Shown: one piece after another, positions 6,001 through 57,622 of the stretch
Position numbering within the stretch: position 1 is the stretch's first letter
How the letters are laid out: each line of letters starts with the position of its first letter
Assembly (NCBI GenBank): GCA_051294905.1
Contig: CM119372.1
Span: 34,412,001-34,476,000 of the forward strand
DNA: 64,000 nt
Reading direction: 5' to 3'
Source: Botryllus schlosseri
Taxonomy: Eukaryota
Program-made: the position numbers and the translations under genes
The notes under the pieces: model-generated
The model's input: only the letters and a program-made list of their open reading frames with translations
Database searches by the model: none
What the model was told of the DNA's origin: nothing

Positions 6001-9000
6001 TAAATCTGGTAACGTGAGCAGAGAGGACAAGAAATTGATAGCAATATATATATGCCATTCCCGATCTTATGACCGATTTTATCATGAATTATCGAATGTT
6101 TTCGCGCTTCGCTCTGGCTCGCTAAACAGTACAGCTAATTTCGTGGCAAAAGCGAACAACGTGATGGGGGGCGGTCGGTTTATCACCCTATGGAAGCCCA
6201 AGACCCAAGTTTTCTCGGGGGGCCTGACGACGTGCCGTTTCGTTCCTGCCATCGGGTATACGCCCGAAGATGTATAATTATTATTGAGGGGTCCTACCTT
6301 TTCAATCACACATCACTCAGCAATTCCCGATCATATTGACCAATTAAATGATTAATTATTGAACTTATTCGCGCTTCACGCGTCTAGGCGAGAATAGCTA
6401 GCTCAGTAGGCTAAATGGGCACCCAATGTAGATGACTAGTATCAGCAAATAGCGGATAGCCGAAGGGGGGGGGGTCTGGGGGCGAAGCCCCCGGGAGTTT
6501 GGTTTATCTTATATATGTATTTACCACCTATTCATTCATGCATTATAGAATATTTTGGTACCTAGGGCAACCGGGAGTATTATAGTAGATTGGTCTGGGG
6601 ATGGCAGGGGCTCTTATGGGTGCGGTCGCACGGTGCCGAGAAACTCGTGGTGGCACGGTGACCCTTATCTCTTATGGGTGCGGTCGCACGGTGCCATTGT
6701 GTCTTATGGCGGGGGTGGCACGGTTACCTTTTCGGGTATAGGCTGCGGCGGCACGGTGCCGCGAAAACTCGTGGTGGCATGGTTACCTTTTCGGGTATAC
6801 GCGCAGTGGCACGGTGACCCTTCGGGTATGTCCTGTTGATGATTTGACTAACGTTGCGGGTATAGGCGCGGCGGCACGGTGTTGAATAAGTATCAAGTAA
6901 ATAGTCACGTGATTGGTTCTTAGTTATTGTGTATATCACAAATTATTATATATGAACAATTTGAAGTAATCCCAACGTTTACGGTGAGTGCGACAGTGAT
7001 ATATCGTTATTCTCATGGCGGGGGTCGCAAGCGGCTCTTATGTCTTATGGCGGGGGTGGCAAGCGGCTATTGTGTCTTGTGGTCGCACGGTAACCCTTTT
7101 CAGCATAGGGATCGGTCGCACGCGGCTTCGTTGTTGGCATGTCGTACTTTCGGGTATAGACTGCAGACGGCATGTCGTACTTTTAGCAAAAAAGGGTGTG
7201 AAATAGTTTGCTAAATCTAGGAATCACTTGCTTGGTAATATTTTGGTAATTAGTTTGCCACAGAGCCGGCGTAGACGGCGATTCAAATACCAACAATAGC
7301 CGCGTTCACATACTAACACTTCAAAAAGGTGTGAAATATTTGTAAAATCCTGCGATCGCCCACAAGATAACACCTCAGACATAGTCATCTTTCACGACTT
7401 GGTGTCATAGCCATACCGATCGCTCACGCGGTGAAATTTTAGTAATCTGTTTGTCACAGAAATTGATTTCGCTGGTAAGATTTAATAGGTAACGACTAAC
7501 AGAACCGCCAGTGTCGGTAACTTGAATAGCAACAAATTGCCACTTATTTCCATCCTAACCCTAATCCTTTGTGAGGTTACCGCATACTCAAATAGGTGGG
7601 AAATAATTGTAAAATCCCACGATCGCTCACAAGGGTAAGGAATAACCGAACCACAACGGCGGCGACTTGAATACTATCAAATTGTCAATTGTTGGTATAA
7701 CTCGAATCTTTTAAGAGTGTAAACCTTTTGAAACTGAATATTACTTGACTTGACCAACTTTCAACTCCGTTTCCGGATCATTCACACATTCCACACCGCT
7801 GTTTTAACACTTATAGAATCAATACCAACTATCTCTAACCCGATAACATTCAATCAGTTTAGTAATTTACCTACTTTAAATCCGTTCGCCAGATGTACTA
7901 CAGGTAAACTGAGATAATCCAGAATGAAATATTTGGACTTTGACATAGTCTGAATTGAAATAGATTGACAATCATGACTACCAACTTTGATCCAGTCACA
8001 TTTCAAGATTATACTTTGAAACAATCCTTGAAACTGACAACTCTATTCACGACTCCGTTTCCGTTTGTAAAATAGAGTTTCAGAAATACTATCACTATGA
8101 CAACTCAACATTTTAACATCTTTCCATGCACAAAAGAGTAAAATACAAAAACCTTGGTAAGTCAATCCGTTTGTAATACCTCACCAAACCAAAACAAAAA
8201 GTGTCCGGATGAAAAGTAGACAAGACTACGCGAGTAATCACTACAACCCACAAACATACCAACTCAGTTGTATCCATATCCCGTCTTTTTATTCACTGTA
8301 AGATGAAGTAATTACTACTTGGCGCGCGACTTGAGATTAACATGTGTTTTGAATATACGACATTCGAAAGTCTGGCCAACGTAATTAAGAATTCATTTCT
8401 TGCGATCAAACGCCGGTGTTACATTGAAAGTTATCATACTGCAAACATAAGGATTGACACAGTGATTTGACATATGACGTATATTTTGTAATGTTCGACC
8501 ATGACTTGGTTATTAAATTATTCACGGTAATTAGACTCGGTGTTTTGGTAAAGGTTATTATGACAGCAACAAACTTTTCACTATCATGGTTATTAAAACA
8601 TCAAATTGTTAAGCCAGACTTACATGCGCGAAATTTTCTTGATTCGGATATTATTCCGGATTGGTACAAAACAATCGTTGTATTGCAGACAACAGAAAAT
8701 ACTTTAAAAATGCAATCGTTTACAATAATTAGGACTAAAGATGAAACAACAATATCGGTATTATTACATTCAACAACCAGTACAATTATTAAAATCCATC
8801 GTTTGCGATAACCGGTGCTAAAGATGTAATAATTCCATTATTCATACATTGAACACCCGATACAAAATGCTTTATTATCGCGATTCGCAACGGGTAATTG
8901 AAGTGTAGAGTCAGTATATCACAATATCGTTACTATTGAATCCAACAATTGATACGATTTATTGTCGGAATTTGTGACAGCGAATTGAAACATCCATACC

Positions 9001-9065
9001 TTACAGAGTGTGAAAATATCACTTTAGGTATCGAGTACCAGTAGTAGTGGGTGAACAATACTTAA

Positions 9066-10009
9066 CCCTTACGAGGTGGGGCCATATTTTGCAGAATTGA
9101 CCTTCACTTTTCAAATTCTCACCGTTACCCCACCAGGACTTGAATCTGGGCCGTTCCAGTTTAAAAGTGGGCGGAGTATAGCCCTATACCGATTCCACTC
9201 TTGATCAACACCCCATGACATGCCTGAGGTTTTTTAATAAGTTTAAATAAACAAGCTTTTCCCCCAAATAAATCTCTCTCTCTCTCAATTTTCAAGACTG
9301 ACCCTCAGGATGGCGTCAGAGAGAGGAATATGATGCTTCAGTGCGTAGCCACTGTTGCCTGGTTTCAAACAAGCCGTCAACCATGGTTGCAAGCCGCGCG
9401 GTTCGTCAGATATCGAAAAATGGGAAATACAGATAAAATTTAAAAATGGGCGTGGTCAGTGAGTGTTCATCAAGGTCAAGTTCATGATCAAGACTCAATC
9501 GGCCCCTACAGTCCGGTTTATGGCATAAAACAACGCGATATGCTTTCTTTTCTCATATCCAACCATTTGCAGGCATAGTAAACCGCTTTATGACTCATAT
9601 GCCGACTGAATTTGCACTTGAACTTGACCTAGATCTTAAAATTCACTGAAGCGTGACAAAAATTTACAAATCCCCCTCAGAAAACTCTCCAGAAAACGTT
9701 TTGATGTTTGAAACGGTGAAAATTTACACAGAAACCCGTACATGTCGACTTCTGATGTTCTGGCAGATTTTCCGACAATATTTCCCACTCGGAATATATC
9801 CGGAAGTTTTAGGTGATAGCCATATTTTATTTTATTTTTAATTTTTTGTTTATTTTTACAAACTAAAATTTTTGAGTAAGGTACCAAATACATCGGAAAA
9901 GTCTCAGCTTTTCAAAAAACGTAGTACCCGATGTCTAGGGCGTGTCAACATGGAGAAATCGGTGTCGGAGACATGCCATATCATATATGATACGCCCACC
10001 TCGTAAGGG
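9066..10009. mobile_element. piggyBac-type non-autonomous element inserted in copy B
   Basis: 15-bp TIRs CCCTTACGAGGTGGG / CCCACCTCGTAAGGG, each flanked by TTAA (9062-9065, 10010-10013). Confidence 0.9.
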
Positions 10010-12539
10010 TTAATTCGTGACTCGTCGTTGTACTTGCTAAATGTAAAAAATTACAAGGTTACACTCTAAAACCTTGATCAGCACAAGAGCAATTTGGAAT
10101 ATCATTACTGGCTGCAACCTATTCTACTAGACAAAACCCACAGCGATAATAAAATCAAAATATGTGCTACACTGAAATCTACAAAATTAGGGATCATACA
10201 TTATCATATGAATATTCTAAAGTAATTATAATCATAAAACCAAACCGCTGAAAGTCATTACCACCCCCACAAAACTATTTGTATGATATTCACCAAACGC
10301 ATCACAACTCAGTATACAGAAATTATTTGTAGAGTGCATACCGACAAAGAAATCATGAACACAACCAACACCGAAAATGATAAACACGTTTCGCGTTACT
10401 ATTGATACAAGTTCATTTCTATCGGGCGAAATAAATGCCACCACAAAACTCACAGCATGCAAAGGTCTTGATTGATATGCATTTCGATTTTTGTCTTATG
10501 ATATCAGCAGGCATTTTAGACATATTACGAATTGTTAAACCAAAGTCGTACGTCCGATTAATAGTTGATTGGAAACTTGTTCACGTACCTCAACCATTAC
10601 AGAAAAGTATAACACCATTGCCCGACAATCTTTTACAAAAGGGATCGAAACCAAGTCACTCAAAGTCGTTGCCGTCACATAAACAATTTGTACGACGTTT
10701 GCTAAATGCGTCCTATAGTTAGGTGTACTAGAAATATTTGTAAAACACGCTATTGTAAAGAAATCGACGAAAAGATATCCTACACCTAAATCTGGTAAAA
10801 CCATTTTGCACTTTTTGCTCGTTAGTATAGTATCCATTTGAATTTTTCCATTTCCTCTCGTCAAAGTAGATGTAATCATAGTCACTAAAGAACTTACTTG
10901 GACGTGCTTGAATTCTAGACATAGTTCTGATTTACCCGACACAAGACCCAAGGACAACCCTAGTTTCAACCGAGCACACATATCCAAAATATCACAGACA
11001 CTTCGCTATTCCTAAAGCCCAAACACCCGATACAAAATATTACTTGTTGTGTTGTTGCGGTATCATCTTCACAATATCACACACAATACGAATGATGGTT
11101 ATGTGTAATATGCTATCGACTTGAATCACATCAACATGGAAGAGGATTTACTCACTCTTTACATAACGATATTGGCCAACATCACGTCGTCGGTGTGTAC
11201 CGTTTTTTCTAGATACAAACTACGCTAGCGTAGCGGAAAATAATTTAGTGTAACAAAAAACAATTTTCACTCTCTTGACTTATGAAAACAACAGACGAGT
11301 CTTCATTCAATATGTTGTTTGTGTCAACTAGTTACTTTGTATGATACGACTGATACCCCCCGCGACTTTTTTCAGATCACAATATGAAAGATATTTACAT
11401 CACACAAAAGACCCCTCTTGATATTCCATACTATACTAAACTGTGGAATGGTTGGTCAGACTCTACAAAACGTTTGACATCGTTTTTACACGAACAGTCG
11501 CGCATCTAAATATTCAAATAATCCAGTACACAGCTATAGTACTTACAGAAATATCATATAGTTCTTGTAACATAGTTGTATGAATATACCATTCAATTGT
11601 ATATTGAAGTTTTGCACCTCCAAGAAGCTCTTCAAAGTTGTATGTGTACAATGTATACCGTGAGTCCTACACATTCGTGATATCCACCCGAGTTTGACTT
11701 TTAGAAAATATTATATCGATATCGCGACATATTTCAAAAACAAAACCACGGTGACTGCTTGAGAGAGGCCTACCGATGATATCACAGTAATACAGTTACT
11801 TCCACAAAAGAGTCTGTATTCGACTTACTTTCCACAAATCTAATGCACAAAATAATTTACTTTGCTAACGAAAAGTGCTGAGTCATCACATGGTTGTCCT
11901 CACAACAATACAACTAAAACATACTATCATACAAAATGGTCGTTATAGTTTGCACACCAACGATACATCGTTCAAGTAACAAGTCTCGAGAATCCAGTTA
12001 TTGAAAAAACGTGAAAGTGTTTCTACGCCAAGTCGTTATGTTGACGAAAGCGTATATTGTAATATCATGGTCGATTTGCATTCGCTGGTCAGTGGTCACA
12101 AACTGTCACTACTCTAAATAATTATTTTTCACTCAAACACAAAAGCATACTTGTCACCATTCGTTTTCATCAAGCACGATTTCAAGAAACTTACTGCGAC
12201 ATGAATTGTTATTTTTATGTTGTGTAAATAGATAATAATTAATTTTAGTAACACTATATCAACATCATCGAGTTGTGCGAATATATTTACATGTAGTCTT
12301 GTGGTTTTAATCGAAGCACACAGCGTGTTCTAATGTAGAGTAATCTCTATTGTACAACAACTCGGTAATCGAAATGTATGCATTAACATTTAAACAGCGA
12401 TCTTGTTTCGTCACGCGAAAAATATGTTCACTATCGCGATACTATGCACAGGGAGTGCAAATCCTTTTCACACTCGTAATAGTATACCAACGGCTACTGG
12501 CGACAACGTTTAACAATACCAACGACACTAAACATACGA

Positions 12540-13160
12540 TACCTACCCAAGTAAAATTACCATTTTCACCTGGAGGTCAGGCGTTACCAGAGCAAAAAAT
12601 ACCATTGTACTTTGGAGATTTATCGTTTACCCAGTGTAACAATACATTTTCACTTGAGGGTCTATCGTTTCCTAGAGTAACAAACCCCTTTTCCTTTGGA
12701 AATCTATTTTTTCCCTGGGTTACAAACCTTTTTCACTTGGAAATATATTTTTTCACCGGGTAACAAACCTTTTTCACTTGGAAATATATTTTTTCCCTGA
12801 ACAACAAACCTTTTTCACTTGGAAATATATTTTTTCTCTGGGTAACAAACCTTTTTAACTTGGAAATATATTTTTTCCCTGAGCAACAAACCATTTTCAC
12901 TTGGTGGGTCGTCGTTTACCTGAGTAAAAATATAATTTTCCTTTGGAGATCCGGCGTTTACCCAGTGTAACAAACCATTTTCACTTGGAAAAATACTTTT
13001 ACCTAGAGTAACTAATCATTTTCTTTTAGAAATATATTTTCTCCCTGGGTAACAAACCCTTTTCGTTTGGAAAACTATCATTTACCTGAGTACCAATACC
13101 GTTTTCACTTGGAAATCTATCTTTTCCCTGGGTAACAATACCATTTTCGTTTTGAAAACT
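12540..13160. repeat. 41-42 bp tandem array in copy B
   Basis: Units like CCTTTTTCACTTGGAAATATATTTTTTCTCTGGGTAACAAA, with degenerate outer units. Confidence 0.9.
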
Positions 13161-13845
13161 GACAACCACACCGGGCAATTTGATATTTTTATATATTGTT
13201 ACAACGGGTAGCGACAAAATATACACCAACAACAACTCCATACATTTGTGTAATCGCATATTCACTTGGTCTGATGCATCCCATCAAAATCCTCAGTTAC
13301 CCACCTGCAATGTGCTGTTGTACATCGATGTGTATGTTTTGGAAATTGGACAATAGATTTCGACATGTCTGTGATGTCCGGGTTCGTGCTTTGGATTTTC
13401 CAGAGTCAAAATGTCTGAATAAACACCTCCTCGACGATGGTTGGTACGTGGATAACGTTGTTCGGAAAACGGTTGGATTTATGTCACCCATCACGATAAC
13501 AATTCCGGGTCGAGTTTTCTCCCATATGTTTACTATATTGTGTCTTTGTTGGTCAATGTATGTCTCGACAGTCAGTTTGAAATCGGAAACCCTGATAAAG
13601 TACGTAACCGGATCCGGATATCTACCCTGAATCGATAAACCAACGAACACTATTCAAAGTAAACATGTTACACCCTGTGTTTCCACGAAAAAATACCATC
13701 AAGACATACGTCGCGCTTGTTTGCCCACACCAGTATACGCGTAAATGGAGGTGTGTGACATTGCATGCAATGTGTTGGTATACAAACATCGGGGAGTTAA
13801 CCGTCGAACCACAGACATTATCATAGCCGGTAATTTTGATGCAGA

Positions 13846-14960
13846 TCAAAGTAGGCTCTTTTAACAAGCACAGAAATTCAATTATCGAACACCGTTTACA
13901 AGACAATATTCTACATGGGTAGGCCTACATGTATTTTCACGGTTATTCGCAAAATGATAAACTAAAATTGGCATAAATGGAGGGGGGCTCATAAAATCAA
14001 AGTAAGCTCTATTAGCAGGTGCAAAAATTTAATGATCGACTACTGTTTATGGTACCATATTCTACATGGGTACATATATTTTCACGGTTACTCGTAAAAT
14101 GACAACTAAAATTCGCATAAATGTAAGGGGGGGGGGGCTCATAAAATCAAAGTAAGCTCTTTTAGCAGATGCAGAAATTTAATGATCGACTGTTTACGGT
14201 ACCATATTCTACATCGGTACATACGTTTTCACGGTTATTCGCAAAATGATAACTAAAATTCGCATAAATGTAGGGGGGGGGGCTAATAAAATCGAAGTAA
14301 GCTCTTTAAGCGGATGCAGAAATTCAATGATCGACTACTGTTTACGGTACGATATGCTACATGGGTACATGTATTTTCACGGTTATTCGTAAAATGATAA
14401 CCAAAAATCGCGTAAATGAAGAAGGGGCCCCCCTCATAAAATCAAAGTAAGCTTTTAGCAGGTGCAGTAATTTAATGATTGACTTCTGTGTGCGGTATTA
14501 CATTCTACATGGGTACATGTATTTTCAGTTATTTGCAAAATGATAACATTTGCGTATATGTAGGAGGGGGGCCCTTTAGCTAAAGGCAAAATAGATAGAG
14601 ATCATCACATCAAAGTGAGCTCTTGCAACTAGCGCAGAAATTTAATGATCGACTACTGCTTACGGTACCATATTCGAAATTGGCGCATGGATTTTTGTGG
14701 TTATTCGTAAAATGATTACTAAAAAATGAGATTTGATGATTGACCTGTCTTTACGGTACACTACCATATTCTTTATGGATACAAGGATTCCGCGGTTATT
14801 CAGAAAATGGTAATACTTAAAAAAAAAGCTCGTAAACCGGAGAAATAGTTGGAAAAAGCGCGTAAACCGAGGAGGGGGGGGGGGGTCTCGAAAGCGCGTA
14901 AATCAACCAGGGGGGGCCCTAGGCGACCGCCTACCTCGCCTACCCCAAAAGCCACCACTG
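13846..14960. repeat. ~145-165 bp tandem array (~6 units), probably internal to a non-autonomous DNA transposon ending ...CCACCACTG at 14960
   Basis: ATCAAAGTAAGCTCT-like motif recurs at ~13846, 13996, 14146, 14291, 14441 and 14609. Confidence 0.8.
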
Positions 14961-16764
14961 ATAGTGTCCTATATGGTGTCGACACAGGCAAATCTCACAC
15001 CTCAGTGAAATTGTATCACGTCATAATTTCCATTTGGCTACAGGCAATTTGACTGTCAATTTTGACCAGCTTGTTGAGCATTAAATTTGGTAAAACGGGT
15101 ATCAATCGAAAGCTGACTCTGCACTGATTACGACAATATAAATTTTATTCCGCTCGTGGCCCTGGAACTCCCACAATCAGCCCCGAATTTTTCATTGTTA
15201 TGGAGATTGGCATTGGGACGCAACGTAAGAGTACGTTCTTGAAATTGGTCTTTATCCCAGCTTGACCAACAATGCAAAAGAAATTGCATCGATTTTTGGA
15301 AGCACGTACGCATGTGACCAATAGTTTTGAACAATGAAATTCACGAAGAGCAAGCTAAGATCACGTATTTCGGACGTCCATTTTGAATAGGGTCTGATTA
15401 TTGTTTCATCTGACTTATTACCAGAAGTTGAAAACCTTTCACAAGCAAGCTGCGTCAATTGTCACATTTATTCTGTGTTGTTGAAGTGTAAATACATGTG
15501 TCTTCTGATTGGTATGATTGAGATTGCAGCAATGTAGGATAATACACCGAAGTGAGCGTAAAATAAAGTACTAAGAAAAATTCCGGCCCGCCAAAAAGTT
15601 GTACACCCGAAATCTGGCCGCGACTAGCAAAAGGTTGCCGACCCCTGGCCTATATTAATGAACACGATACCTAGCGCCAACTTGGGCCACATAATGCCAC
15701 AATGCTGAAGTACATATTGACGTTTTAAACGTCGCCGAATGTATCAACTGGGGCAATCATATGATATAATATTAACCCACAAAATCAGTAACTCCTAACA
15801 ATTTCGACGAGGACTTGCAACGGAATATAAGCTTACGCCTTAACGGCCTAGGCCAGACCGGACAATGCATTCGGCGTATTAGTATTGGTACGTCGATATT
15901 GAGTAGAGTGTAAAACGGGTTTCTATAGTTGCTACCGATGTTACCCCACCAACAAGTTATACAGCAGTAGTCAACACACCAATCACACGGATTTGGTTTT
16001 TGTGATACAATAAACATATGAAATGAAGATGTACCTTGTACGCGTGCTAGATTTGTTACATCAGACAACGATATCAACTTCATTGATTGGTTGAATAAAC
16101 ATCATTCGCTGACTACCTCCATGTGGTGTAGTTCGCCCTAGATGTTGTGTGATTGCGGGTCAAGCTCACAGCAGATAATCACTAAATTTTCGAGCAAACC
16201 ATTGTAGCAAAGCAAGTAAAATATTTGAGATCGTCAATGTGCCCGTTAGTTTACTGTTAATTTTTTATGCTGCCAGCGCCATTCATATAGTGGACCGCAG
16301 TTGAAATGCAATAAATTTCAATCAAACATGTTATAATGAAGTGAAAATTGTAATATATGGAAAAGGTTCGTAGTACAGAACCTATACAAAGGTTCGTTTG
16401 TAAACGTGAACCTTTATTTTTCTGAGGTTCACACACAGAACGCGAACGTGAACCTCACGTTCACACCATCCCTGAACAGTAGCTGTTGAAGTCAATCGGA
16501 CATCTGTGGCTGGTCAGAGTTGTCAACAATGTCTTTGAATGCTGGTTACATGTTGTATGTAAAAACCCTTAGTAAAGCCTGCACGTTAACATCAGTTATA
16601 TTGGAACGTAGCCTTGTCTCGGTAATGTTCACGGTCGAAAATATATGTACAGAGTACAGGTACACCCGAACAGAGCAAGTAGTTCCATGTCCGTATTTCC
16701 CAGGTTGGCAAACTTGGATTCATTCTGTGACGCATGAAATTTGTCGATGCTTTCAGATTAAAGT

Positions 16765-17262
16765 GCTTCTCGGAGGTACAGAACTTCAATATATAATTGA
16801 ATTGTATATTGAACAGTATATTTATATTCGGGGTAATCGTCAGCAACTAGTAGAGAATTGGAGAGAACATTGTATATTAGCAATCGTATCACAAAATATG
16901 ACGTCACCTGCTTGGAATGTAATGTAAAATAAGAGAGCGTTCGATGTACAATTTAAAGATTTTACACAAACTCTTTCTGCTGATGTATTTTGATAAAGTT
17001 CCACTCCAAGGCATGCACACGGATGAAAGTGTGAGCGGCCCCTTCCGATGACGCGAAATCTGTCGTCTGGATAATTTTTTGCACGAGCGGGATTATCAAA
17101 CAAATGTTTGCCAATGGCATAGTTTCTGGCCGTTGATCGTTCAGCACCAAACTTTAGCTTCACCGAGCTTTTCACCGAGCGTGATGCGCGTTTTCTACGA
17201 TGTTAATAAACAATGTTCTTTCCAATTCTCTACTGTTTGCTGAAAATAAATGGGTTCATTTC
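16765..17262 (-). mobile_element. Penelope-like element fragment (decayed GIY-YIG endonuclease C-terminus with inverted repeat)
   Basis: ORF 16840-17175 contains AIGKHLFDNPARAKNYPDDRFRVIGRGRSHFH, homologous to 18217-18537. It shares the GGGGTAATCGTCAGCAACTAGTAGAGAATTGG repeat. Confidence 0.75.
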
Positions 17263-44600: not shown

Positions 44601-46739
44601 GAAAGATATTCCGTGTTGGTACAAATCACTCTGTGTATTACGGATATCAGAAAATATTTTTACAAATGTAGTTGTTTCCAGTAACCAAGACTAAAGATGA
44701 CACAACAATTTCGTTTGGAATATCTTTACTGGACGCATCCTATTCTACTAGACTTGAGTAATACACAAAACTCATAGCATTAACAAAATCGCAATAGGCG
44801 CTACACTGAAATCTACAAAATGTGTTTGTATTGTTACTCAAAGTAGTGATCATAAATTATCATTTAAATAAGTAATTGTAATCATAAAACCAAACTTGTG
44901 AAAGTCATTACCATAACAAAAGAATATTGTAGGTTGCTTGCTAAATGTATGCCGGAAATATTTGTAGAACGCTCACGACCAAAGAAATCGGAAATTTCTC
45001 CCCATTGTCATTCGTCAAAGTATATGTTGTCACAATACTCATCCCGTAAAAGATCTTACTTGTATGTGATTGAATCGCCGGTAATTAACTCGCTAAATCA
45101 AACCATAAGGAAATTTCACTCAGTCATCGGATTATGATATTAAACAGCGTCGCTTAATCGGCATAGAGCGTTTTTCTAAATGCAAATCATACCTGACCAA
45201 CAGAAAACAATTTTCACTCACCTCGTAATGAAACCAAGTGGTGGGCCTACGTTCAATATTTTGTTTGTGTCAAATACTTTGCAATAAACACACACACTGG
45301 AGTGGTTGAGCTTTACATCATCAAGCTGTCATCTGTAAATCGAGATCACATCCGACTTGTAACTGTATCGTTTACCTAACCGAGTTGTATGCACAGTTTC
45401 ATATTTTTATCATTTAGTGATTGCTGAACATACCAAACGATACACATTCACTTCCGAAATACTGCGTTGATCTCAATTCCCTTTGTCGTGATAACCGAAG
45501 TACATTTGTTTCGAATTCGTAACAGCCGACTTTTCTATGACACGATAAATTTTGACAAGTTATGCTTAGAAGATTGGTTGCATATCGCGAAAAATAACAT
45601 ACTGCTCATATTGATACCGTTAATCGGTATTTTCACGCGAGTCGATTTTCAAATGAGTAAAATTTATTACATGAGTTTCTCCGCTTAATGTAAATGAAAA
45701 CTCAGTCGTCTTTTAACATCACATAGACATTGATAAAAAGTAAGTAAGCAATCAAACACAACACTTTGTACGACACTAATTATTGTTCCACACATCTCAT
45801 TTCATACTAAGTGTATACGAAAGATATTCATGTTACACGAAAATATTCGCTCATGCTACAAACCTGTACAATGATTGGTGGTGTAAGTCCAGCACAATTG
45901 TGGTATCCACACGAGTTTAGTTAACACAATTTACGACACCGAGGTCGCCTCATCTTTCGTAAGACAACAAACCAAGGCTTCAGGATATGTCCATGTCATA
46001 ACAATAAATCAACTACTCCAACAACAGAATACATATGTTTTCTAGCACGGTGCTTACATCTTACACACAAATCAACCAACTTTGCTAACGAAAAGCGCTG
46101 AGTCATCACATGGTTGTCCTCACAACAATACAACTAAAACATACTATCATACAAAATGGCCGTTATAGTTTGCACACCAACGATACATCGTACAAGTAGC
46201 AAGTCTCGAGAATCCAGTTATTCAAAAAAACGTGAAAGTGTTTCTACGCCAAGTCGGTATGTTGACGATAGCATATATTGTAATATCATGATCGATTTAC
46301 ATTCGTTGGTCACAAAATGTCACTACTCTAAATAATTATTTTTCACTCAAAGCCTACTTGTCACCATTCGTTTCATCAAGCACGAGTTCAAGAAACCTGC
46401 TACGACATGAATTGTTATTTTTATGTTGTGTAAATAGGTAATAATTAATTTTAGTAACACTATATCAACATCATCGAGTTGCGTGAATAGATTTACATGT
46501 GGTCTTGTGGTTTTAATCGAAGTATACAGCACGGTCTAATGTAGAGTCATCTCTACTGTACAGCAACTCGGTAATCGAAATGCATTAAAATTTAAACAAC
46601 GATCTTGTTTCGTCGCACCAAAAATATGTTTACTATCGCGATACTCTGCACAGGCCGTGTAAATCCTTTTCACACTCGTAATAGTATACCAACAGCTACC
46701 GGCGACAACGTTTAACAATACCAACAACACTAAACATAC

Positions 46740-47440
46740 GATACCTACCCAAGTAAAATTACCATTTTCACCTAGAGGTCGGTCGTTACCCGAGTAGAAA
46801 TACCATTGTCCTTTGGAGATTTATCGTTTACCCAGTGTAACAAACCTTTTTCCCTTGGAAATATATTTTTTCTCTTGGTAACTAACCTTTTTCACTTGGA
46901 AATCTATTTTTGTCCTGGATAACAAACCTTTTCACTTGGAAATATATTTTTTCTCTTGGTAACAAACCTTTTTCACTTGGAAATATATTTTTTCTCTGGT
47001 TAACAAACCTTTTTCACTTGGAAATATATTTTTTCTCTGGTTAACAAACCTTTTTCACTTGGAAATATATTTTTTCTCTGGTTAACAAACCTTTTTCACT
47101 TGGAAATATATTTTTTCTCTGGGTAACAAACCTTTTTCACTTGGAAATATATTTTTTCCCCGGGTAACAAACCTTTTTCCCTGAGCAACAAACCATTTTC
47201 ACTTGGTGGTTCGTCGTTTACCCGAGTAAAAATATCATTTTCTTTTGGAGATCCGGCGTTTACCCAGTGTAACAATACATTTTCACTTGGAAAAATACTT
47301 TTACCTAGAGTAACTAATCATTTTCTCCTGGGTAACAAACCCTTTTCGTCTGGAAACTATCATTTACCTGAGTACCAATACCGTTTTCACTTGGAAATCT
47401 ATCTTTTCCCTGGGTAACAATACCATTTTCGTTTTAAAAA
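46740..47440. repeat. 41-42 bp tandem array, copy C left arm (mirror at ~49875-50495)
   Basis: Same unit as in copies B and D. Confidence 0.9.
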
Positions 47441-48217
47441 CTGACAACCACACCGGTCAATTTGATACTTTTTGTATATTGTTACAACAGACAGCGACAA
47501 AATATACACCAACAACGACTCCGATACATTTGTCTAATCAAATATTCACTTGCTCTGATGCATCCCATCAAAATCATTGGTTACTCACATACAATAACAA
47601 CGTGCTGTTGTACATCGACATGTATGTTTTCGGAATTGGTGAATAAAGGGGTTTCCGATATGTCCGTGATGTCCGGGTTCGTGCTTTGGATTTTCCAGAG
47701 TCAAAATGTCTGAATAAAACACCTCCTCGACTTTGGTAACTGGTTGATACACGGATAATGGTGTTTGGAAAACGGATGAATTTTTGTTCCCCATCGCGCT
47801 GACAACATCGGGTACTTGTGAGTTTCCTCGGGTCTGTTTACTATATTGTGTCTTTACTGGTCAATACATGTCGCTCCAGTCAGCTGAAACCGGATCACTA
47901 ATATGAGAAAGTGTGGGGGCCGGATCCGGATATTCACTCATGACCCAACGACCGATATTCAAGTAAACATGTTACCGACCGTGTTTTGTCTCCATGAAAA
48001 ATACCTATGCATACACCATCACATCAAGTACGTCACGATTGTTCACAAGTATTTGCGTAAACGAGGTGTATGTACAATGTGTCGATGCACAAACATCATG
48101 GGACACAAATTCACGTTCTCAAGTCTCATCATGCGCCGACTCTGTACATTCAATGTGGGCATAGATGACTTGGAGACATGATACAATGGATAGTGCATTA
48201 TGCATACCGATATATTC

Positions 48218-48496
48218 TCAGTCAAATATGCGACCCATACACATCCATATACCCTGATTTTCGCTGAATATCCACAACACCAACAAATCTGTACATTTCT
48301 TTTCCCCTGACCTCGACGATAGAGTTGTCATCCCAATGTACCAATCGAGTGTATGGTTCATCAGGTGAAAATCCAAATCAAATGTCGCCAAGGTATCGTT
48401 TTTCATTTTCAATATTTCCACCGCTGCATCTTTTCTGTGTCGTAAAACCACGGTGTGAGGCCAGAGGAATCTATGGAACGTTACGCGTAATCCCAT
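48218..48496 (-). pseudogene. Central-spacer gene of unknown function in copy C (1-bp frameshift)
   Basis: Peptide homologous to 57623-57918; frame restored by adding one T in GATTTTCA. Confidence 0.6.
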
Positions 48497-51490
48497 AATT
48501 ACTCGGGGATATAGTCAGGTAACGACAACGTTTTCTCAGTGGTCTGCGTGGGTGCACCGTTTCAATACGTAGCTGGATCAACTAGACCAAAAGTTTCCAA
48601 CCACGTTTTATAACGGCATGTAGAATTACGAGACAGCACCCTCTTGCGGAGTGGTTAACACGAAATCAGTCTTCAACCCACAGAGACACACCTCGGATTA
48701 CATTATCTAATCGTATTCGAACTCGAGATTCACACACACACAGAGTCCCTGTTTACGATTTCAATCCGGAGTCACTGCTCACGATGTTTAGCTGGAGTCG
48801 TTGTGTGGGAGTAGCAACATCGGGCATATTCATCACCTGCAAGATTGATAACGATGGTGATCGCCAAATACCGAAAACCAGGTGAAACACTGCGGTCTCA
48901 GCAAAAAGTTCGCAGGTTAGGACGAACAATACGTGGAGGGATTGAGCGAGTTACGCAACCCGATTATGTCGAAGTCTAGATCACGATACAAGTCTACCTG
49001 AGAATCCGAACAATCTTGCAAAATCAAGGTGTGAACCCGTGAAAGGGCTGTACTCGTGTGAGATGTATTTTTCACAAGTTGGGTGGAGGTCGGTTCATAC
49101 TAAGACCATGTTACGTCCAAATATGACCGCTTGCCTGTCTCCAAGTCATCTATGCCCACATTGAATGTACAGAGTCGGCGCATGATGAGACTTGAGAACG
49201 TGAATTTGTGTCCCATGATGTTTGTGCATCGACACATTGTACATACACCTCGTTTACGCAAATACTTGTGAACAATCGTGACGTACTTGATGTGATGGTG
49301 TATGCATAGGTATTTTTCATGGAGACAAAACACGGTCTGTAACATGTTTACTTGAATATCGGTCGTTGGGTCATGAGTGAATATCCGGATCCGGCCCCCA
49401 CACTTTCTCATATTAGTGATCCGGTTTCAGCTGACTGGAGCGACATGTATTGACCAGTAAAGACACAATATAGTAAACAGACCCGAGGAAACTCACAAGT
49501 ACCCGATGTTGTCAGCGCGATGGGGAACATAAATTCATCCGTTTTCCAAACACCATTATCCGTGTATCAACCAGTTACCAAAGTCGAGGAGGTGTTTTAT
49601 TCAGACATTTTGACTCTGGAAAATCCAAAGCACGAACCCGGACATCACGGACATATCGGAAACCCCTTTATTCACCAATTCCGAAAACATACATGTCGAT
49701 GTACAACAGCACGTTGTTATTGTATGTGAGTAACCAATGATTTTGATGGGATGCATCAGAGCAAGTGAATATTTGATTAGACAAATGTATCGGAGTCGTT
49801 GTTGGTGTATATTTTGTCGCTGTCTGTTGTAACAATATACAAAAAATATCAAATTGACCGGTGTGGTTGTCAGTTTTTAAAACGAAAATGGTATTGTTAC
49901 CCAGGGAAAAGATAGATTTCCAAGTGAAAACGGTATTGGTACTCAGGTAAATGATAGTTTCCAGACGAAAGGGGTTTGTTACCCAGGAGAAAATGATTAG
50001 TTACTCTAGGTAAAAGTATTTTTCCAAGTGAAAATGTATTGTTACACTGGGTAAACGCCGGATCTCCAAAAGAAAATGATATTTTTACTCGGGTAAACGA
50101 CGGACCACCAAGTGAAAATGGTTTGTTGCTCAGGGAAAAAGGTTTGTTACCCGGGGAAAAAATATATTTCCAAGTGAAAAAGGTTTGTTACCCAGAGAAA
50201 AAATATATTTCCAAGTGAAAAAGGTTTGTTAACCAGAGAAAAAATATATTTCCAAGTGAAAAAGGTTTGTTACCAAGAGAAAAAATATATTTCCAAGTGA
50301 AAAAGGTTTGTTATCCAGGACAAAAATAGATTTCCAAGTGAAAAAGGTTAGTTACCAAGAGAAAAAATATATTTCCAAGGGAAAAAGGTTTGTTACACTG
50401 GGTAAACGATAAATCTCCAAAGGACAATGGTATTTCTACTCGGGTAACGACCGACCTCTAGGTGAAAATGGTAATTTTACTTGGGTAGGTATCGTATGTT
50501 TAGTGTTGTTGGTATTGTTAAACGTTGTCGCCGGTAGCTGTTGGTATACTATTACGAGTGTGAAAAGGATTTACACGGCCTGTGCAGAGTATCGCGATAG
50601 TAAACATAAGTAGTTATATAGATCGGTCAACCGGTGGCAGGGGTTCTTATGGGCGGGGTCGCATGCTAACGAGAAACCGGGGGTGGCATGCTAACGTTTT
50701 CGTCTTATGGCGGGGGTGGCATGCTAACGTTTTCGTCTTATGGGTGCGGTCGCATGATAACGCGAAACTCGTGGTGGCATGCTAATGTTTTTTGGTATAC
50801 GTGCGGCGACATGCTAACGACGATAAATGTGTCTGTCATGTATTCTTACGGGATCTGTGGCGACTCGCCATGTGTTCTTATGGGCGCGGTCGTGATTCGT
50901 ACTTTCAGGCATCTCTCGCGCGTTGTTGAATATGTATCAAGTAAATAGTCATGCGAATGAATCTTTGTTAATGTGTATATCGTTATTCTTATGGACGCGG
51001 CGATGATTCGTACTTTCGAGTATAGACATCTCTCGCGTGGTGTTGAATATGTACGAGTCACCAACAATAACCGCGCGGACGGAAACGTGGTTTGTTGTGA
51101 GGATTACGCGTGCGACCTATATTTCGAATGACCTGCGCGCTGACTTATTTCTCGTCTAGTCGCTACTATCGATTATTACACTAGACCGGTCAGTGTGAAA
51201 TAGTTTGATCGTAAATTATGATATATGATGTCGTAGTTTAGTCGTATCAAATGACCGATCGTGTTCTCTCTTTCCTCGCTATTGATTGCTAGCTGAATAA
51301 TACTTTCGGCTTATTCGCTGTTTCGCGCGTACAAAATAGTCTGCTGTTCACAGTCTCAACTTCATCGCGATAGCACAATTTTCACACCTCGATCAGTAGA
51401 ACAACACCGCACTAACGCAGTTGGCGAATCACATAGGTCATACATTTTACGCGAAATGAAATATTGTATTGTGGTATACAAATATGCAAA

Positions 51491-52126
51491 CTATTCTTTC
51501 AATTCAACAAGTCTAGTTAACGAATCGATTTTCAAGCTGCCGACACAGTTTTTAACACGAGTGAGTTGATATTTCTTCCCGGGTACGAGCGAGGCTTTGT
51601 TCCATTGATCCAAAACCACCTCACCAGTATCATCCTTCAATGTAAAACTGTATAATTTCAACTCCTTTCCGGCCCCAGAATTGACCATCTTCTCCTCTCG
51701 AGAAACACAAGTAGCGGCGATCGAAACGTATTCATCTTTATTCCCGTATACCGATTCGCAGGTCAATAATGGGTATTCTTCAGTCGTATGTCTCGATTTT
51801 CCATGCGTGGTTACTGACGAAGCCCGTCCCAGTAATACAGCAGGTTTTCCAGTAAACTTGTCAATTTGGACCCAACCGGATTTGACCATGAGTTTTTTTC
51901 GTTTGGAGAATGCTTTCTCAATGACCCCGAACAATTCACGATTGAAACACGTGAAAGATATCTCTTCGTTATTACCGTCGATGAATATACCTTTGAGATA
52001 TTGGCTAACGCCACCTCTTTTGGGTGATGAGACGAATTTGACGCCGACGTGAAAATTTGAAGTTGCTCCGACTTGCATAGTGTTGACGCTGTTCGATGCC
52101 ATATCGTTTGATAAAGTGGGAGTCAT
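51491..52126 (-). CDS. Tandem OB-fold protein (RPA/SSB-like ssDNA-binding), 211 aa
   Basis: Intact intronless ORF. C-terminal half YVSIAATCVS...KLYSFTLKDDTGEVVLDQWN...PGKKYQLTRVK fits the RPA-type OB pattern. N-terminal half (FIDGNNEEISFTCF) looks like a second OB fold. Confidence 0.7.
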   Translation of the reverse strand: MTPTLSNDMASNSVNTMQVGATSNFHVGVKFVSSPKRGGVSQYLKGIFIDGNNEEISFTCFNRELFGVIEKAFSKRKKLMVKSGWVQIDKFTGKPAVLLGRASSVTTHGKSRHTTEEYPLLTCESVYGNKDEYVSIAATCVSREEKMVNSGAGKELKLYSFTLKDDTGEVVLDQWNKASLVPGKKYQLTRVKNCVGSLKIDSLTRLVELKE

Positions 52127-55100
52127 CAGTGTAACTCACTACACAAATCAAGTTGAATCGTATTTGAATGTATTGATTCGACCCAACTCAAATCCTTTGA
52201 CAAATCCTATTAACGCGATCTGTTGAATCGAACGTAACCTGAATATTACTGACGCCAACATTCACCCGCATCGGATCATTCACACATTCCACGTCGGTGT
52301 TTTAACACTTATAGAATCAATACCAACTATCTCTAACCCGATAATATTCAATCATTTTGGTAATTTGCCAACTTTAAATCCATTCGCGGGATGTACTAAA
52401 GGTAAATCCAAATAATCCAGAATGAAATATTTGGACTTCGACATTGCGTGAATTGAAATAGGTTTGACAAACATGACTACCAACTTTCACCCAGTCACAT
52501 TTCAAGATTATACTTTGAAACAATCCTTGAAACTGACAACTCTATTCACGACTCCGTTTCCGTTTGTAAAATAGAGTTTCAGAAATACTATCACTATGAC
52601 AACTCAACATTTTAACATCTCACCATGCAGAAACGAGTTAAATACAAAAACCTTGGTAAGTCAATCCGTTTGTAGTAACTCACCAAACCAAAACAAAAAG
52701 TGTCCGTATGAAAAGTAGACAAGACTACGCGAGTAATCACTACAACCCACAAACATACCAACTCAGTTGTATCCATATCCCATATTTTTTATTCAACTGT
52801 AACATGAAGTAATTACTACTTGGCGCGCGGTTTGAGATTAACACATTACATTTGAGTATACGAGATTTGAATGTCTGACCAACGTAGTTGAGAATTCTTA
52901 CAATCGAACGATGGTGTTATATTCAAAGTTATCATGCTGTGAACATAAGGATTGACGCATTGATTTGACATATGAGATTTGTAATAGTTGATCATTACTT
53001 GATTATTAAATTATGACATTATTAGACCAGGGTTGTGTTGAAGGTTATTACGATACCAACAAACTTTTCAGAAACATTGTTATTAACATATCGATTTGTA
53101 AAACTAGATTAACATGTCTGAAATGTTTTGGTTGGGAAGATTATGCCGTGTTCGTAAAAACCACGCAGCGTATTGTGGAAATCAGGAAATAATTTACAAA
53201 TGTAATTGTCTCCAGTAACCAAGACTAAAGATGAAACAACAATTTTCTTTGTTGAACAATAACCGGTATAATACTTTATCGTCGTAATCTGCGGTGGGAA
53301 TTGAAACACTTTCGCACATTTCCCGGTGTCAAGATATCACACTAGGTGAATTGACATATCGCCGCTTGATTAATGCTTAATCCGTTCGCGCCATTTCACA
53401 CACTTTGATCATTACAAAAAACAAATTGGAATATGTTTGCTATATGCATTCAATTCGGTTAGAAATGTCTGGTACACAACAATCGTAATATCAATGAAGT
53501 ACTTGCTACACTGTAATTCACTTAACGTGTTTTGCATTGTTGATCATTTGTAGTATTGATTGTTTTTGAACCCCCGAATAATAATTCCCCGACATGAAAC
53601 CAAACCGTTGAAAGTCGTTACCATCACAACGAAACAATTTGTACGATGTTTGCTAAATGTATCCTATAGTTAGGTGTACTAGAATTATTTGTCTAACACA
53701 TACACCGACAATGCAATCGAAAATTTTTCCGTTGTCATTGCTAGAGTAAATGTCATCACAATACTCTGTCACTAAAAGACGTTACTTGTATGTGATTGAA
53801 TCCCTAACAATTATCTCACTAAACCGAACTCCAAAGAAATTTTACTCACTCGACGGATATGAAACAGCGTCGCTTAATCGGTCTATATCGTTTTTCTAAA
53901 GGTAAATCATATCCATCCAATAGAAAACAATTTTCACTAGCTTGGTAATGAAACCGAAGTCTTCAGTCGATATTTTGTTTGTGTCAAATACTTTGTAATA
54001 AACACATTTGAGTGGTTGAGCTTTACATCATCAAGCTGTCATCTGTAAATCGAGATTACATCCGACTTGTAACTCTATCGTTTAACTAACCGAGTTGTAT
54101 GCACAGTTTGATATTTTGGTCATTTAGTGATTGCTGAACATACCAAACGATGCACACCCACCGCCGAAATACTGCGTTGATCTTAATTTCCATCATCGTG
54201 ATAATCGAAGTACATTTCTTTCGAATTCGTAACAACCGACTACGACATGATAAATTTTTGACAAGTTTACTTAGAAGGTTTGTTGCATATCGCGAAAAAT
54301 AATATACCACTCATATTGATACTGTTACTTCATTGATCGATATTTTTAAACGAGTAAAATTTATTACTTGAGTTTCTCCGCTTAATGTAAATGTAAACTC
54401 AGTCGTCTTTTAACATCACAAATACATTGATAAAAAGTAGGCAATCAAACACAACACTTTGTACGACACTAATTATTGTTCCACACATCTCATTTCATAC
54501 TAAGTGTATACGAAAGATATTCACGACACATGAAAATATTCGCTCATGCTACGAACATACGCAATGATTGGTGGTGCTTTCAAACTGTTTCGATATCACA
54601 AGAACTTTATTGTCTGAATGGGTGTTCATGTATCTTAATAATCAAATAGTTCAACACAGAACTAGTACTAACAGAAACATCAGAGAGTTGTTTACACAAA
54701 AGTTTGTATGTGTACAGTATGCGAATACCATGTGTAAGTCCAGCACAATTGCAGTATCCATCCGAGTTTAGTCAACACAAATTTATTACAACGGAGCCAC
54801 GTAAACTTTCGTGAAAGAAAAGCATACTCACTTCCAGAGGGTTATGTCAACACCATAGCAGTAAATCAGCTACTCCAACAACAAAGTACATATGTTTCTA
54901 GCCACGATCCTTACATCTTTCACATAGATCAATCTAGTTTGCTAACGAAATGTGCTGAGTCATCACACGATTGCCCTCACAACAAAACAGCTAGAAGATA
55001 TTATCATACAAAAATATTCCTAACCCTTTGCGCACCAGTGACAAATCATACAACAAACATTTTTTGTGAGGTGAATTGTTGTTCAGTGTCAAGTCTACCT

Positions 55101-55709
55101 GTTGAAACGTACATTAAAACAACACAGTCACAATTCAATTAAAACCACGAATCTATTTTCATTTCGTCACATACAGAAAAATAAATTTTCTTTCCCGAAC
55201 ACATACTTGTAACCAATCGCTTTCATTAAACACACATCTCCATAAAAGTATTTACTTTCTACAGCATAGACAGTCCGATGTAGTCAAGAAATATTTTTAT
55301 TAATCAAAATCATCGATTTCTGTTCACGGCGTTAGTGTGTGCATGTCATACCTGTGGGCCCCGTATTAAAATGGACAAGACACGACTGAATGTAAGGGGG
55401 TAGAAGTCTATCACATCGATTTACATGTGGTCCTCGCTACGGTTTCAAAAAACGAATCATATATTTTGCATTGGTCGAGACCGAGCGAACCAGTTACATG
55501 TATTCGCGGTAATGATTTTGCTTGTCATATGCGAATGATAGGGTTGCTACTCCGACAAATCAAATCAACATACAACAATCTTCTGACGATCATAATAGCA
55601 ATTTCATTTTCCACCCCTTCGTAACTGTATACCCACGAAAAGTATATGGTACAACTCGGTAACTACGTTTAACAAGACCAATCACACTACCAGCGTTGAA
55701 CACAAGATA

Positions 55710-56365
55710 CCTACCCAAGTAAAAATATCATTCTGGTTTGGACAACTGACGTTTACCTGTGTAAAACTATCATTTTCACTTGGAGGTCCACCGTTACCTA
55801 ACTAAAATACCATTGTCCTTTGGAGATTTATCGTTTACCCAGTGTAACAATCCCCTTTTCCTTTGGAAATATATTTTTTTCTCTGGGTAACAAACTTTTT
55901 CACTTGGAAATATATTTTTTTCCCTGGATAACAATCCTTTTTCACTTGGAAATATATTTTTTCCCTGGATAACAATCCTTTTTCACTTGGAAATATATTT
56001 TTTCTCTGGGTAACAAACCTTTTTCACTTGGAAATATATTTTTTCCCTGGATAACAATCCTTTTTCACTTGGAAATATATTTTTTCTCTGGGTAACAAAC
56101 CTTTTTCACTTGGAAATATATTTTTTCTCTTGGTAATAAACCTTTTTCACTTGGAAATATATTTTTTCTCTGAGTAACAAACCTTTTTCACTTGGGAATA
56201 TATTTTTTCTCTGGATAACAAACCATTTTCACTTGGTGGGTCGTCGTTTACCTTAGTAAAAATATTATTTTCCTTTGGAGATCCGGCGTTTACCCAGGGT
56301 AACAATACATTTTCTCTTGTCCATCTAGCTTTTCCCAGAGTAACAAAACCATTTTCATTTTGAAA
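55710..56365. repeat. 41-42 bp tandem array, copy D left arm (mirror at ~58763-59335, two units shorter)
   Basis: Same unit as in copies B and C. Confidence 0.9.
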
Positions 56366-57622
56366 TCTGACAAACACACCTGACAATTTGGTATTTGTTG
56401 TATTGACGATAGTTTGAAATAGATTACAACGAACAGTGACGGAAATATACACGGACTACCGGTTTCAGAGTATACCTCCATCAGTCGTATCACATCAATA
56501 TCATCGGTTAACCACATACAATATGCTCTTGTACACAGAAATGTATGTTCTGGAAAATTGGACAATAGGCTTCGATAGTTCTGTGATGTCCGGGTTCGTG
56601 CTTTGGATTTTCCAGAGTCAAAATGTCTGAATAAAACACCTCCTCGACGAAGGTTGGTATGTGGATAACGGTGTTCGGAAAACGGTTGGATTTATGTCAC
56701 CCATCGCGATAACAATTCCGAGTCGAGTTTTCTCCCGCATGTTTACTATATTGTGTCTTTATTGGTCAATGTATGTCTCGACATTCAGTTTGAAATCCGA
56801 AACCCTGATAAAGTATGTAACCGGATCCGGATATCAACTCTGAATCGATAAACCAATGAACAATATTCAAAGTAAACATGTTACACCCTGTGTTTCCACG
56901 AAAAAATACCATCCAGACATACGTCGCGCTTGTTTGCCCACACCAGTATACGCGTAAATGGAGGGGTGTGACATTGCATGCAATGTGTTGGTATACAAAC
57001 ATCGATCCACAGACATTATCATAGCCGGTAGTTTTGATGTAGATCGAATGTTATCACACCCGATAACAATACCAATAAGCCACATTGCAATGACTCTGAG
57101 TCTGCGCTATTACATCGATATTTCGACACCGTTCACTGATTTACTCGATGGTGTTATCGTGTTGTAACATTACAAGATAGTCATGACCCTATCTCCGGAC
57201 AGATCACCCAGACCAATTGGATACATCGGTCGATATCCATCGTGTTGTCGACACCGAAGTTTTCTGCTGAGACTGCAGCGTTTGACCAATGTGAACTATC
57301 GAAGTACGGTGCTCGAAATGATTGCAATCAGTCTTTCATTCACGATGCATGGACATCGCTACTCCCACATAACGACTCCAAATAAATATCGTGCAAATCT
57401 CGGACTGATACTGTGATCCAATAAGGTGTGTTTCTGTGGAATGAAGACTGCAATCGTACACCACAATAGAACACTACCTCGTGATTTCACACGCAAGCAT
57501 ATTACACACTTTCGTAAGGGTCTAGTTCGTCCGGCGACATTTCGAAACGGTCATCGCCACAGGAGATCGAGGTTGGTCTCGTCATATCGAAGCATTTTGA
57601 AACTGTCATCACCACAAGGCTA

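What the first reader, a model, noticed from the sequence alone, without database searches (positions are those of the whole stretch)
6576..57099. Arm length is conserved (~6.4-6.5 kb) despite swapped and decayed content, suggesting a size constraint
Left arms measure 6449 bp (C) and 6491 bp (D). B gives about 6.38 kb after removing the piggyBac insert and adding the ~55 bp missing before the fold point. Their internal blocks differ and most ORFs are broken. Constant length with degenerate content suggests stuffer DNA under selection for total size (~13.8 kb), as expected if a helper Polinton/virus capsid packages the element.
Basis: inference. Interest (0 to 1): 0.7.

Follow-up and report, generated by a model that had tools for sequence, protein, structure and literature searches.

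The report
Size band of palindromic Polinton satellites
Three copies of a gene-poor, mirror-image hitch-hiker of a virus-like Polinton transposon really do have arms of nearly equal length despite swapped contents, which fits a loose size window set by a helper's capsid, but three copies cannot prove it and the family seems to vary by about a kilobase.

Summary
The lengths are right. The arms of C and D are 6,449 and 6,491 bp. B is about 6,377 bp only after removing a 948-bp insert and assuming D's fold point. Shared landmarks drift by up to 818 bp inside the arms, yet the net difference is at most 129 bp: P = 0.005-0.046 against independent block changes, but 0.21-0.25 if B's insert is kept. 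"Decayed ORFs" is not shown. Shared arm DNA has no coding signal, and D carries an open OB-fold gene. The scan found this family before on other DNA of this genome. Those unchecked notes give 13.1-14.9 kb for 14 copies, 16-18 kb for three and 8-12 kb for three centre-deleted ones. The very tight match here is therefore partly luck, and the real pattern is probably a band with a floor near 13 kb. Best reading (0.42): an inverted dimer of a 7.4-kb half-unit held inside a helper Polinton's packaging window, as undersized helper-dependent adenovirus vectors are. Descent with balanced gain and loss is the main rival (0.30). No particle, helper or target-site duplication could be tested here.

The parts
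1..2297 (-). Element A: outer 2.3 kb of a right arm, cut by the window start; ends in an (AGT)3-type terminus
   Evidence: BLAST to B, C, D; terminus in register
6577..13847 (+). Element B: one arm only (7,271 bp as it stands; about 6,377 bp inferred); no spacer or right arm in the window
   Evidence: spacer search finds only C and D
9066..10009. piggyBac-type non-autonomous insert in B: CCCT...AGGG ends, 15-bp inverted repeats, TTAA on both sides (9062-9065, 10010-10013). The family label rests on TTAA/CCCT ends (recalled; TTAA and piggyBac also in the bioRxiv passage)
   Evidence: single copy in the window
8758..11660 (+). B-specific middle block (about 1.95 kb without the insert) that offsets B's shorter outer part; it holds two diverged copies of a module present once in C and D
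12612..13148 (+). 41-bp tandem array of B's arm
13845..14547 (.). Unrelated 148-bp tandem repeat that begins where B's homology ends
41730..48178 (+). Element C left arm, 6,449 bp; 111-bp, 227-bp and 41-bp tandem units
48179..49135 (.). C spacer, 957 bp; homologous to D's spacer in the opposite orientation; carries a frame-disrupted copy of the small loop gene (about 48252-48502, minus strand)
49136..50608 (-). C right arm, first 1,473 bp, interrupted by D after AACATA; 7 mismatches and one 81-bp gap against the left arm
50609..57099 (+). Element D left arm, 6,491 bp
51491..52126 (-). Open 211-aa ORF, likely an OB-fold single-strand-binding protein, in D only, where A, B and C have 190-227-bp repeats; mirrored at 62917-63552
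   Evidence: (feature score 0.95, 10 of 10 best family hits OB-fold clan); Pfam and PDB sequence searches blank
57100..58027 (.). D spacer, 928 bp, with the small loop ORF (57644-57895, plus strand), whose last residues depart from two relatives
58028..64000 (-). D right arm, cut by the window end 434 bp short of the expected terminus; 0 substitutions in 5,973 aligned bases, two 1-bp gaps, one 82-bp gap in the 41-bp array

Best explanation
B, C and D are copies of a high-copy, non-autonomous element with Polinton/Maverick ends, built as arm (about 6.4 kb) + spacer (about 0.94 kb) + inverted arm. Shown: the layout, near-identical arms within a copy, mosaic and block-swapped arms between copies, no core Polinton genes, and net lengths closer than independent block changes predict. 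Inferred: the element is copied by a helper Polinton's protein-primed polymerase and inserted by its integrase; each round re-copies one arm from the other, so any gain or loss counts twice. Most speculative step: the 7.4-kb half-unit is too small for the helper's capsid, the 13.8-kb inverted dimer fits, and copies therefore spread only inside a loose window, with a floor near 13 kb and a soft ceiling near 16-17 kb. Deletions survive when local duplication or block exchange refills the arm. What is conserved is a band of total length, not a fixed 6.4-6.5 kb arm.
For: Anchor offsets of up to 818 bp cancel to a range of 129 bp, P 0.005-0.046. The offsetting blocks are not relocated copies of each other. 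The closest pair changes along the arm (B-D 94-96%, C-D 91%, B-C 94%, B-D 95%), so exchange alone could give arms of 5.2-7.8 kb. The shared arm DNA has no coding signal that would explain keeping it. In 3 of the 4 laid runs used, arm:spacer depth is 2.1-2.6 and terminal bins are 0.7-0.9 of the interior (summed contig depth, a weak measure). The 15 joints shown of 264 skip at most 479 bp. No short derivative of the ends lies in the window. Adenovirus genomes under 75% or over 105% of normal length rearrange, and a 15-kb helper-dependent vector is packaged as direct and inverted dimers (PMC4189039, passages). Maverick capsid genes are under purifying selection though particles have not been seen (PMC8097293, passages). 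As leads only: with a noted helper of 15,830 bp, C and D would be 87% and the half-unit 47%, and 0 of 14 noted core copies fall under 13,056 bp where free exchange predicts 25% (the threshold is the observed minimum, so this is descriptive).
Against: Only two arms are measured; B's value needs two corrections, and with its insert kept P is 0.21-0.25. The three arms are relatives and 79-91% of each arm is shared with another, so descent explains much of the similarity. Unchecked notes list 16.1, 17.2 and 18.0 kb copies and 8.3, 9.3 and 12.4 kb centre-deleted copies; with all 22 lengths the SD is 2.1 kb. The core spread is not clearly narrower than free exchange (P 0.06), and with the long copies it is wider. 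D's arm carries an open gene, so it is not pure stuffer. No helper, capsid gene or particle was seen here.
Confidence: 0.42

Rival explanations
1. Common descent with roughly balanced gain and loss. All copies come from one founder of about 13.8 kb; tandem duplication, deletion and recombination move lengths up and down without selection, and these three arms happen to lie close.
For: 79-91% of each arm is shared and collinear. 10-27% of each arm is local duplication. The noted family spread is comparable to the no-constraint model (P 0.06).
Against: P 0.005-0.046 for the window. Non-autonomous DNA transposons usually shrink and short forms outnumber long ones (established knowledge, recalled), yet reads show no excess of termini here after 5-25% sequence divergence between arms.
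Confidence: 0.3
2. Length is kept, but not by a capsid. The arms hold spread-out cis elements (33-bp terminal repeats, 190-227-bp repeats, the 41-bp array, blocks of 90-96% identity) or accessory genes needed for strand-displacement copying, hairpin stability, nuclear handling or integration. A minimum length follows from needing them all.
For: The same order of terminal repeats, conserved blocks and 41-bp array is seen in B, C and D. D has an open OB-fold gene. The spacer gene shows a codon pattern (changes at positions 1/2/3: 30/15/39).
Against: The high-identity blocks switch partner pair along the arm, which points to recent recombination and not to constraint. The OB-fold block is absent from A, B and C and has 0.2-0.4 of arm depth in reads. 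About 1.9 kb of B's middle is mostly unlike C and D.
Confidence: 0.2
3. Ascertainment or assembly effect. Readers notice full-size palindromes, B's figure was tuned to fit, and long perfect inverted repeats may be smoothed by the assembler.
For: B needs two corrections. D's arms have 0 substitutions, and both C and D lose the same 81-82 bp on the right arm. No contig piece spans the element.
Against: C and D lengths need no correction. Contigs of 4 of 4 runs cover all 30 bins. Short palindromes would be easier to notice, not harder.
Confidence: 0.08

Closest known systems
Maverick/Polinton elements (vertebrate survey, PMC8097293; passages and section 7 read)
   Same: (AGT)2 end motif in A, C and D; total size (13.8 kb inferred) inside the reported 12,723-24,620 bp range
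   Different: Inverted repeats of 6.4-6.5 kb against 46-1,447 bp; none of the eight core genes detected; 6-bp target duplication not testable here
Helper-dependent (gutted) adenovirus vectors with stuffer DNA (PMC4189039; passages)
   Same: Ends without viral genes, non-coding filler, inverted dimer of a half-size unit; 75-105% size rule as the proposed constraint
   Different: Those are engineered and do not integrate; here the element is natural, integrated and high-copy, and its packaging is unproven
Butterfly polintons with ~2-kb TIRs and polB-less, cargo-carrying derivatives (bioRxiv 10.1101/2025.02.07.637071; passages)
   Same: Enlarged inverted repeats that duplicate genes; derivatives stay mobile after losing the polymerase gene
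   Different: Those keep capsid and other core genes and their TIRs are a third as long; the passages seen report no length constraint
Snap-back/copy-back defective viral genomes and foldback transposons (Drosophila FB, sea-urchin TU); both recalled, not looked up
   Same: Palindromic layout, arms partly made of tandem subrepeats
   Different: Polinton-type ends; only 10-27% of each arm is local repeat; sizes cluster near the helper's size and not far below it

Membership tests
Autonomous Maverick/Polinton | 5'-(AGT)2 end motif | tested here: met
   3 of 4 ends read AGTAGT, B reads AGTATT; motif as in PMC8097293 section 7
Autonomous Maverick/Polinton | 6-bp target-site duplication | not testable with these tools
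   No element has both ends in the window and no genome is held. D's left flank is AACATA and C's other arm shows the empty site, but D's right end is outside.
Autonomous Maverick/Polinton | Core genes: protein-primed polymerase B, integrase, ATPase, protease, major and minor capsid | tested here: not met
   Longest stop-free frames are 156, 178 and 214 aa in B, C and D. 0 of 45 element ORFs scanned reach a Pfam cut-off (45 picked from 109 listed frames, 5 more were flank ORFs).
Autonomous Maverick/Polinton | TIRs of 46-1,447 bp | tested here: not met
   Arms of 6,449 and 6,491 bp against the range
Non-autonomous Polinton derivative | Polinton ends kept, core genes absent, many copies | tested here: met
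   160,257 contig records of run X1 lie on D's arm and spacer at 80% likeness or more
Non-autonomous Polinton derivative | Ends shared with an autonomous helper in the same genome | not testable with these tools
   No genome held; only unchecked earlier notes report helpers
Helper-packaged (satellite or defective-interfering) genome | Length within about 75-105% of the helper | tested here: inconclusive
   87% for C and D using one unchecked helper length; noted copies run from 52% to 114%, the core from 82% to 94%
Helper-packaged (satellite or defective-interfering) genome | Found inside particles (nuclease-protected, unit length) | not testable with these tools
   Needs bench work; D's terminal 18-mer and two ORFs find nothing in IMG/VR
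Helper-packaged (satellite or defective-interfering) genome | Length kept while content turns over | tested here: inconclusive
   P 0.005-0.046 without B's insert, 0.21-0.25 with it; family-level lead P 0.06
Foldback or MITE-type DNA transposon | Arms made mainly of tandem subrepeats; short derivatives abundant (features recalled) | tested here: not met
   Local repeats cover 10-27% of the arms; termini not enriched in reads; no short derivative in the window

The most novel reading that the evidence does not exclude
A natural 'gutted vector' of an animal Polinton: a gene-poor half-genome that doubled into an inverted dimer to reach the helper capsid's minimum load and has since been held in that window while its filler turned over. 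The length histogram of several hundred copies would then read out the packaging limits of a Polinton virion that, for vertebrate Mavericks, had not been observed (PMC8097293), and the abundant satellite would be the easiest marker for finding such particles.
Probability: 0.35. Interest if true: 0.82.

Novelty: new variant of a known kind. Interest (0 to 1): 0.52.

Why it matters
Whether animal Polintons/Mavericks form particles has been argued from conserved capsid genes, not from observation (PMC8097293 abstract and discussion passages). A high-copy dependent element whose length is bounded turns that question into two direct tests: a census of young copy lengths against helper length, and a search for nuclease-protected 13-15 kb DNA. 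It would also explain why a non-autonomous element stays at 14 kb when such elements normally shrink. If the band is only descent, this is an ordinary property of related copies.

Tried and rejected
The whole-genome census that would decide the question could not be run: no genome is held.

IMG/VR scans with the OB-fold ORF, the loop ORF and D's terminal 18-mer found no relative. The metagenome scan gave 3 loci of 60% GC with a 38-residue, 44% match and no DNA similarity to the window; rejected as chance.

Pfam on 50 ORFs found only a THAP domain in the flank at 2511-3050. The Atlas gave no usable hit for B's 148-aa ORF. PDB sequence search of the OB-fold ORF was blank; the 1.84-billion-protein search gave one close and two weak hits, one of them a low-complexity-looking protein with scattered sub-threshold Pfam matches. 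The model of the loop protein was unusable (pLDDT 37), so no fold search was run and no packaging role could be tested.

'Decayed genes': rejected as unshown. The same phase test did not reach significance on the spacer either (P 0.12, two blocks), so its power on short blocks is low. 'Offsets cancel because a block moved': rejected. The automatic-anchor P of 0.005 includes two doubtful anchors at k=12; the curated values (0.013, 0.046) are safer.

Run X16 has an uneven depth profile and was left out of the depth ratios (3 of 4 runs used).

Seven paper searches (listings and abstract starts only, except the papers cited) showed no description of a palindromic, size-limited Polinton derivative. 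The library lacks most subscription papers, and the original Polinton paper was not held, so non-autonomous Polintons described there or in Repbase were not checked. No supplements were read; the size figure S1 of PMC8097293 may bear on the helper range.
Full report
Anatomy. Self-comparison of the window shows four related elements. A is the outer 2.3 kb of a right arm ending at 2297. B runs from 6577 to about 13847, where an unrelated 148-bp tandem repeat begins. C has a left arm 41730-48178, a 957-bp spacer and a right arm from 49136 that is interrupted at 50608 by D. D has a left arm 50609-57099, a 928-bp spacer and a right arm from 58028 to the window end. The four 17-nt ends are in register and three of four begin AGTAGT, the commonest Maverick end motif (PMC8097293 section 7). 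D's arms differ by no substitution in 5,973 aligned bases; C's differ at 7 of 1,473. No element has both ends in the window, so no target duplication could be checked, and no genome is held.

The measured lengths. B is 7,271 bp as it stands. It contains a 944-bp insert between two TTAA; leaving 948 bp out gives 6,323 bp, and its homology ends 54 bp before D's fold, hence about 6,377 bp. My scripts cut the insert one base out of register, which does not change any length. B has no spacer or second arm in the window, so neither its fold point nor the timing of the insert is observed. Totals of 13,774 (C) and 13,826 bp (D) assume unseen right ends.

Swapped content. Each arm is 64-77% covered by another and 79-91% by either. 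Between shared anchors B falls 818 bp behind C by position 1.8 kb, overtakes it by 259 bp at 3.8 kb and ends 99 bp behind; C leads D by 352 bp and ends 30 bp behind. B's surplus is partly a diverged local duplication and is not C's extra DNA moved elsewhere. The closest pair changes along the arm: B-D at 94-96%, then C-D at 85% and 91%, then B-C at 94%, then B-D at 95%. The arms are recombinant mosaics.

Is the net agreement more than chance? I permuted segment lengths among B, C and D up to the last shared anchor. The observed range of 129 bp has P = 0.005 with automatic anchors (k = 10, 12, 14), 0.013 with 11 or 6 curated segments and 0.046 with 4; with B's insert kept as a segment P is 0.21-0.25. 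Pairwise values run from 0.026 to 0.12. This is modest evidence of compensation from three related sequences picked after the fact.

Decay. In 13 of 13 arm comparisons mismatches show no codon phase (P 0.17-0.90), and 9 of 47 small indels are multiples of three. Stop-free runs are at chance level in B, borderline in C and above chance in D (214 aa, P 0.02). None of 45 element ORFs scanned reaches a Pfam cut-off. The arm DNA is best called non-coding, not shown to be decayed genes. Two exceptions: D's open 211-aa ORF resembles OB-fold single-strand-binding proteins and has a 96% identical relative; and the spacer has a small gene with two relatives of 91-93 aa and a codon-like pattern of change between C and D (30/15/39 by position). 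Its model was unusable.

Family level, from reads. Contigs of 4 of 4 runs labelled as the same organism cover all 30 bins of D's arm and spacer. In three runs the median arm depth is 2.1, 2.1 and 2.6 times the spacer depth, the first three bins are 0.7-0.9 of the arm, and the OB-fold block is 0.2-0.4. The tool warns that these sums are not copy numbers, and divergent termini may be under-counted. Taken as a weak hint, most relatives have two arms per spacer and short end-only derivatives do not dominate. The 15 best-supported joints shown of 264 skip 38-479 bp or go back 166-234 bp; 249 were not shown.

Family level, from earlier notes (unchecked leads). Thirty distinct notes were returned; searches returned none. 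I took lengths from 20 and dropped 10 (multi-element or nested spans, spans with extra inserts, one Merlin element, one possibly different family). Fourteen fall at 13,056-14,896 bp (e1-7786975, 7804408, 7884507, 7879981, 7803090, 7880266, 7884335, 7882696, 7882541, 7883520, 7803791, 7884490, 7804074, 7803183), three at 16,110-18,017 (7804329, 7857165, 7856653) and three, described as deleted, at 8,295, 9,301 and about 12,400 (7804265, 7884682, 7883370). The grouping is mine and after the fact. With C and D the core SD is 621 bp, about 310 bp per arm, far wider than the spread in this window. Free exchange of the B, C and D segment lengths gives totals of 13,736 +/- 938 bp; the 14-copy SD of 666 bp is only marginally lower (P 0.06), and the 17-copy SD is higher. 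The one asymmetric feature is the low side: that model puts 25% of copies below 13,056 bp and none of the 14 is there (threshold set by the data). One note gives a helper of 15,830 bp, which would put C and D at 87%, the core at 82-94% and the half-unit at 47%. One note calls the host a sea squirt; I did not check this.

Mechanism. Established: Mavericks encode a protein-primed polymerase, integrase, packaging ATPase and jelly-roll capsids, belong to the PRD1-adenovirus lineage, and their particles had not been observed (PMC8097293, passages). In adenovirus, genomes below 75% or above 105% of normal length rearrange, and a 15-kb helper-dependent vector is packaged as direct and inverted dimers of 30 kb (PMC4189039, passages). 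Inferred: a half-unit with one Polinton end was copied back on itself; strand-displacement copying keeps the arms alike and lets the spacer flip; the dimer fits the helper capsid and the monomer does not. Duplication and block exchange refill what deletion removes. I give this 0.42, descent with balanced change 0.30, a non-capsid constraint 0.20 and artefact 0.08.

Comparison. It works like a helper-dependent viral genome with Polinton ends. It is not an autonomous Polinton (core genes and TIR size not met). It meets the tested features of a non-autonomous derivative, with the helper link untested. Butterfly polintons with 2-kb TIRs and polymerase-less derivatives are the nearest natural case I read of (bioRxiv 10.1101/2025.02.07.637071, passages). 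Passages of PMC6431247 and PMC11296320 added background only. Seven searches showed no account of this form, within an open-access library that lacks the original Polinton paper.

Verdict. The numbers are right, the block swaps are real and the compensation signal is modest. The claim of a fixed 6.4-6.5 kb arm is probably too tight, and 'decayed ORFs' is not shown. A looser size window set by a helper capsid is the most likely single explanation but is under even odds. It is worth following because the family's copy number makes it directly testable. Interest 0.52; a new variant of a known kind.

Noticed in passing
window 46837-47179 vs 50135-50396; 55844-56236 vs 58891-59188: In both C and D the right arm has two fewer 41-bp units than the left (81 and 82 bp), although their spacers point in opposite directions. 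Either slippage tied to the direction of copying or an assembly effect.
   Followed up: partly
window 50603-50614: D sits inside C's right arm; C's left arm preserves the empty site and predicts an AACATA duplication at D's far end. C is therefore interrupted, not necessarily truncated.
   Followed up: partly
window 48252-48502 (-) and 57644-57895 (+): The small loop gene is frame-disrupted mid-way in C and departs from two database relatives in its last residues in D, although D's arms have no substitutions. A copy may not need its own intact loop gene to move.
   Followed up: partly
window 48098-48178 and 57004-57099: The last 81-96 bp before the fold are not alignable between C and D, and the spacer homology sits at different distances from the folds. 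The arm-spacer boundary has shifted between subfamilies.
   Followed up: partly
window 51207-52130 vs 42336-43220: D's OB-fold gene block (about 920 bp) takes the place of C's 227-bp repeat block (about 870 bp): two unrelated sequences of almost equal length between shared anchors.
   Followed up: yes
window 16758-17243 and 18199-18738: A separate, older inverted pair of about 500 bp at 72% identity, about 2 kb overall, unrelated to the Polinton-type ends.
   Followed up: no
window 21065-30061: Nested LTR retrotransposons: direct repeats 21554-21736/26503-26685 (99.5%) around gag-pol-like ORFs, inside a second element with repeats 21065-21249/29877-30061 (96.8%). Labels from recalled motifs.
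   Followed up: no
window 2511-3050 (-): THAP-domain ORF just beyond A's terminus (Pfam E 2e-15), probably part of a P-element-like transposon (recalled).
   Followed up: no
   Followed up: no
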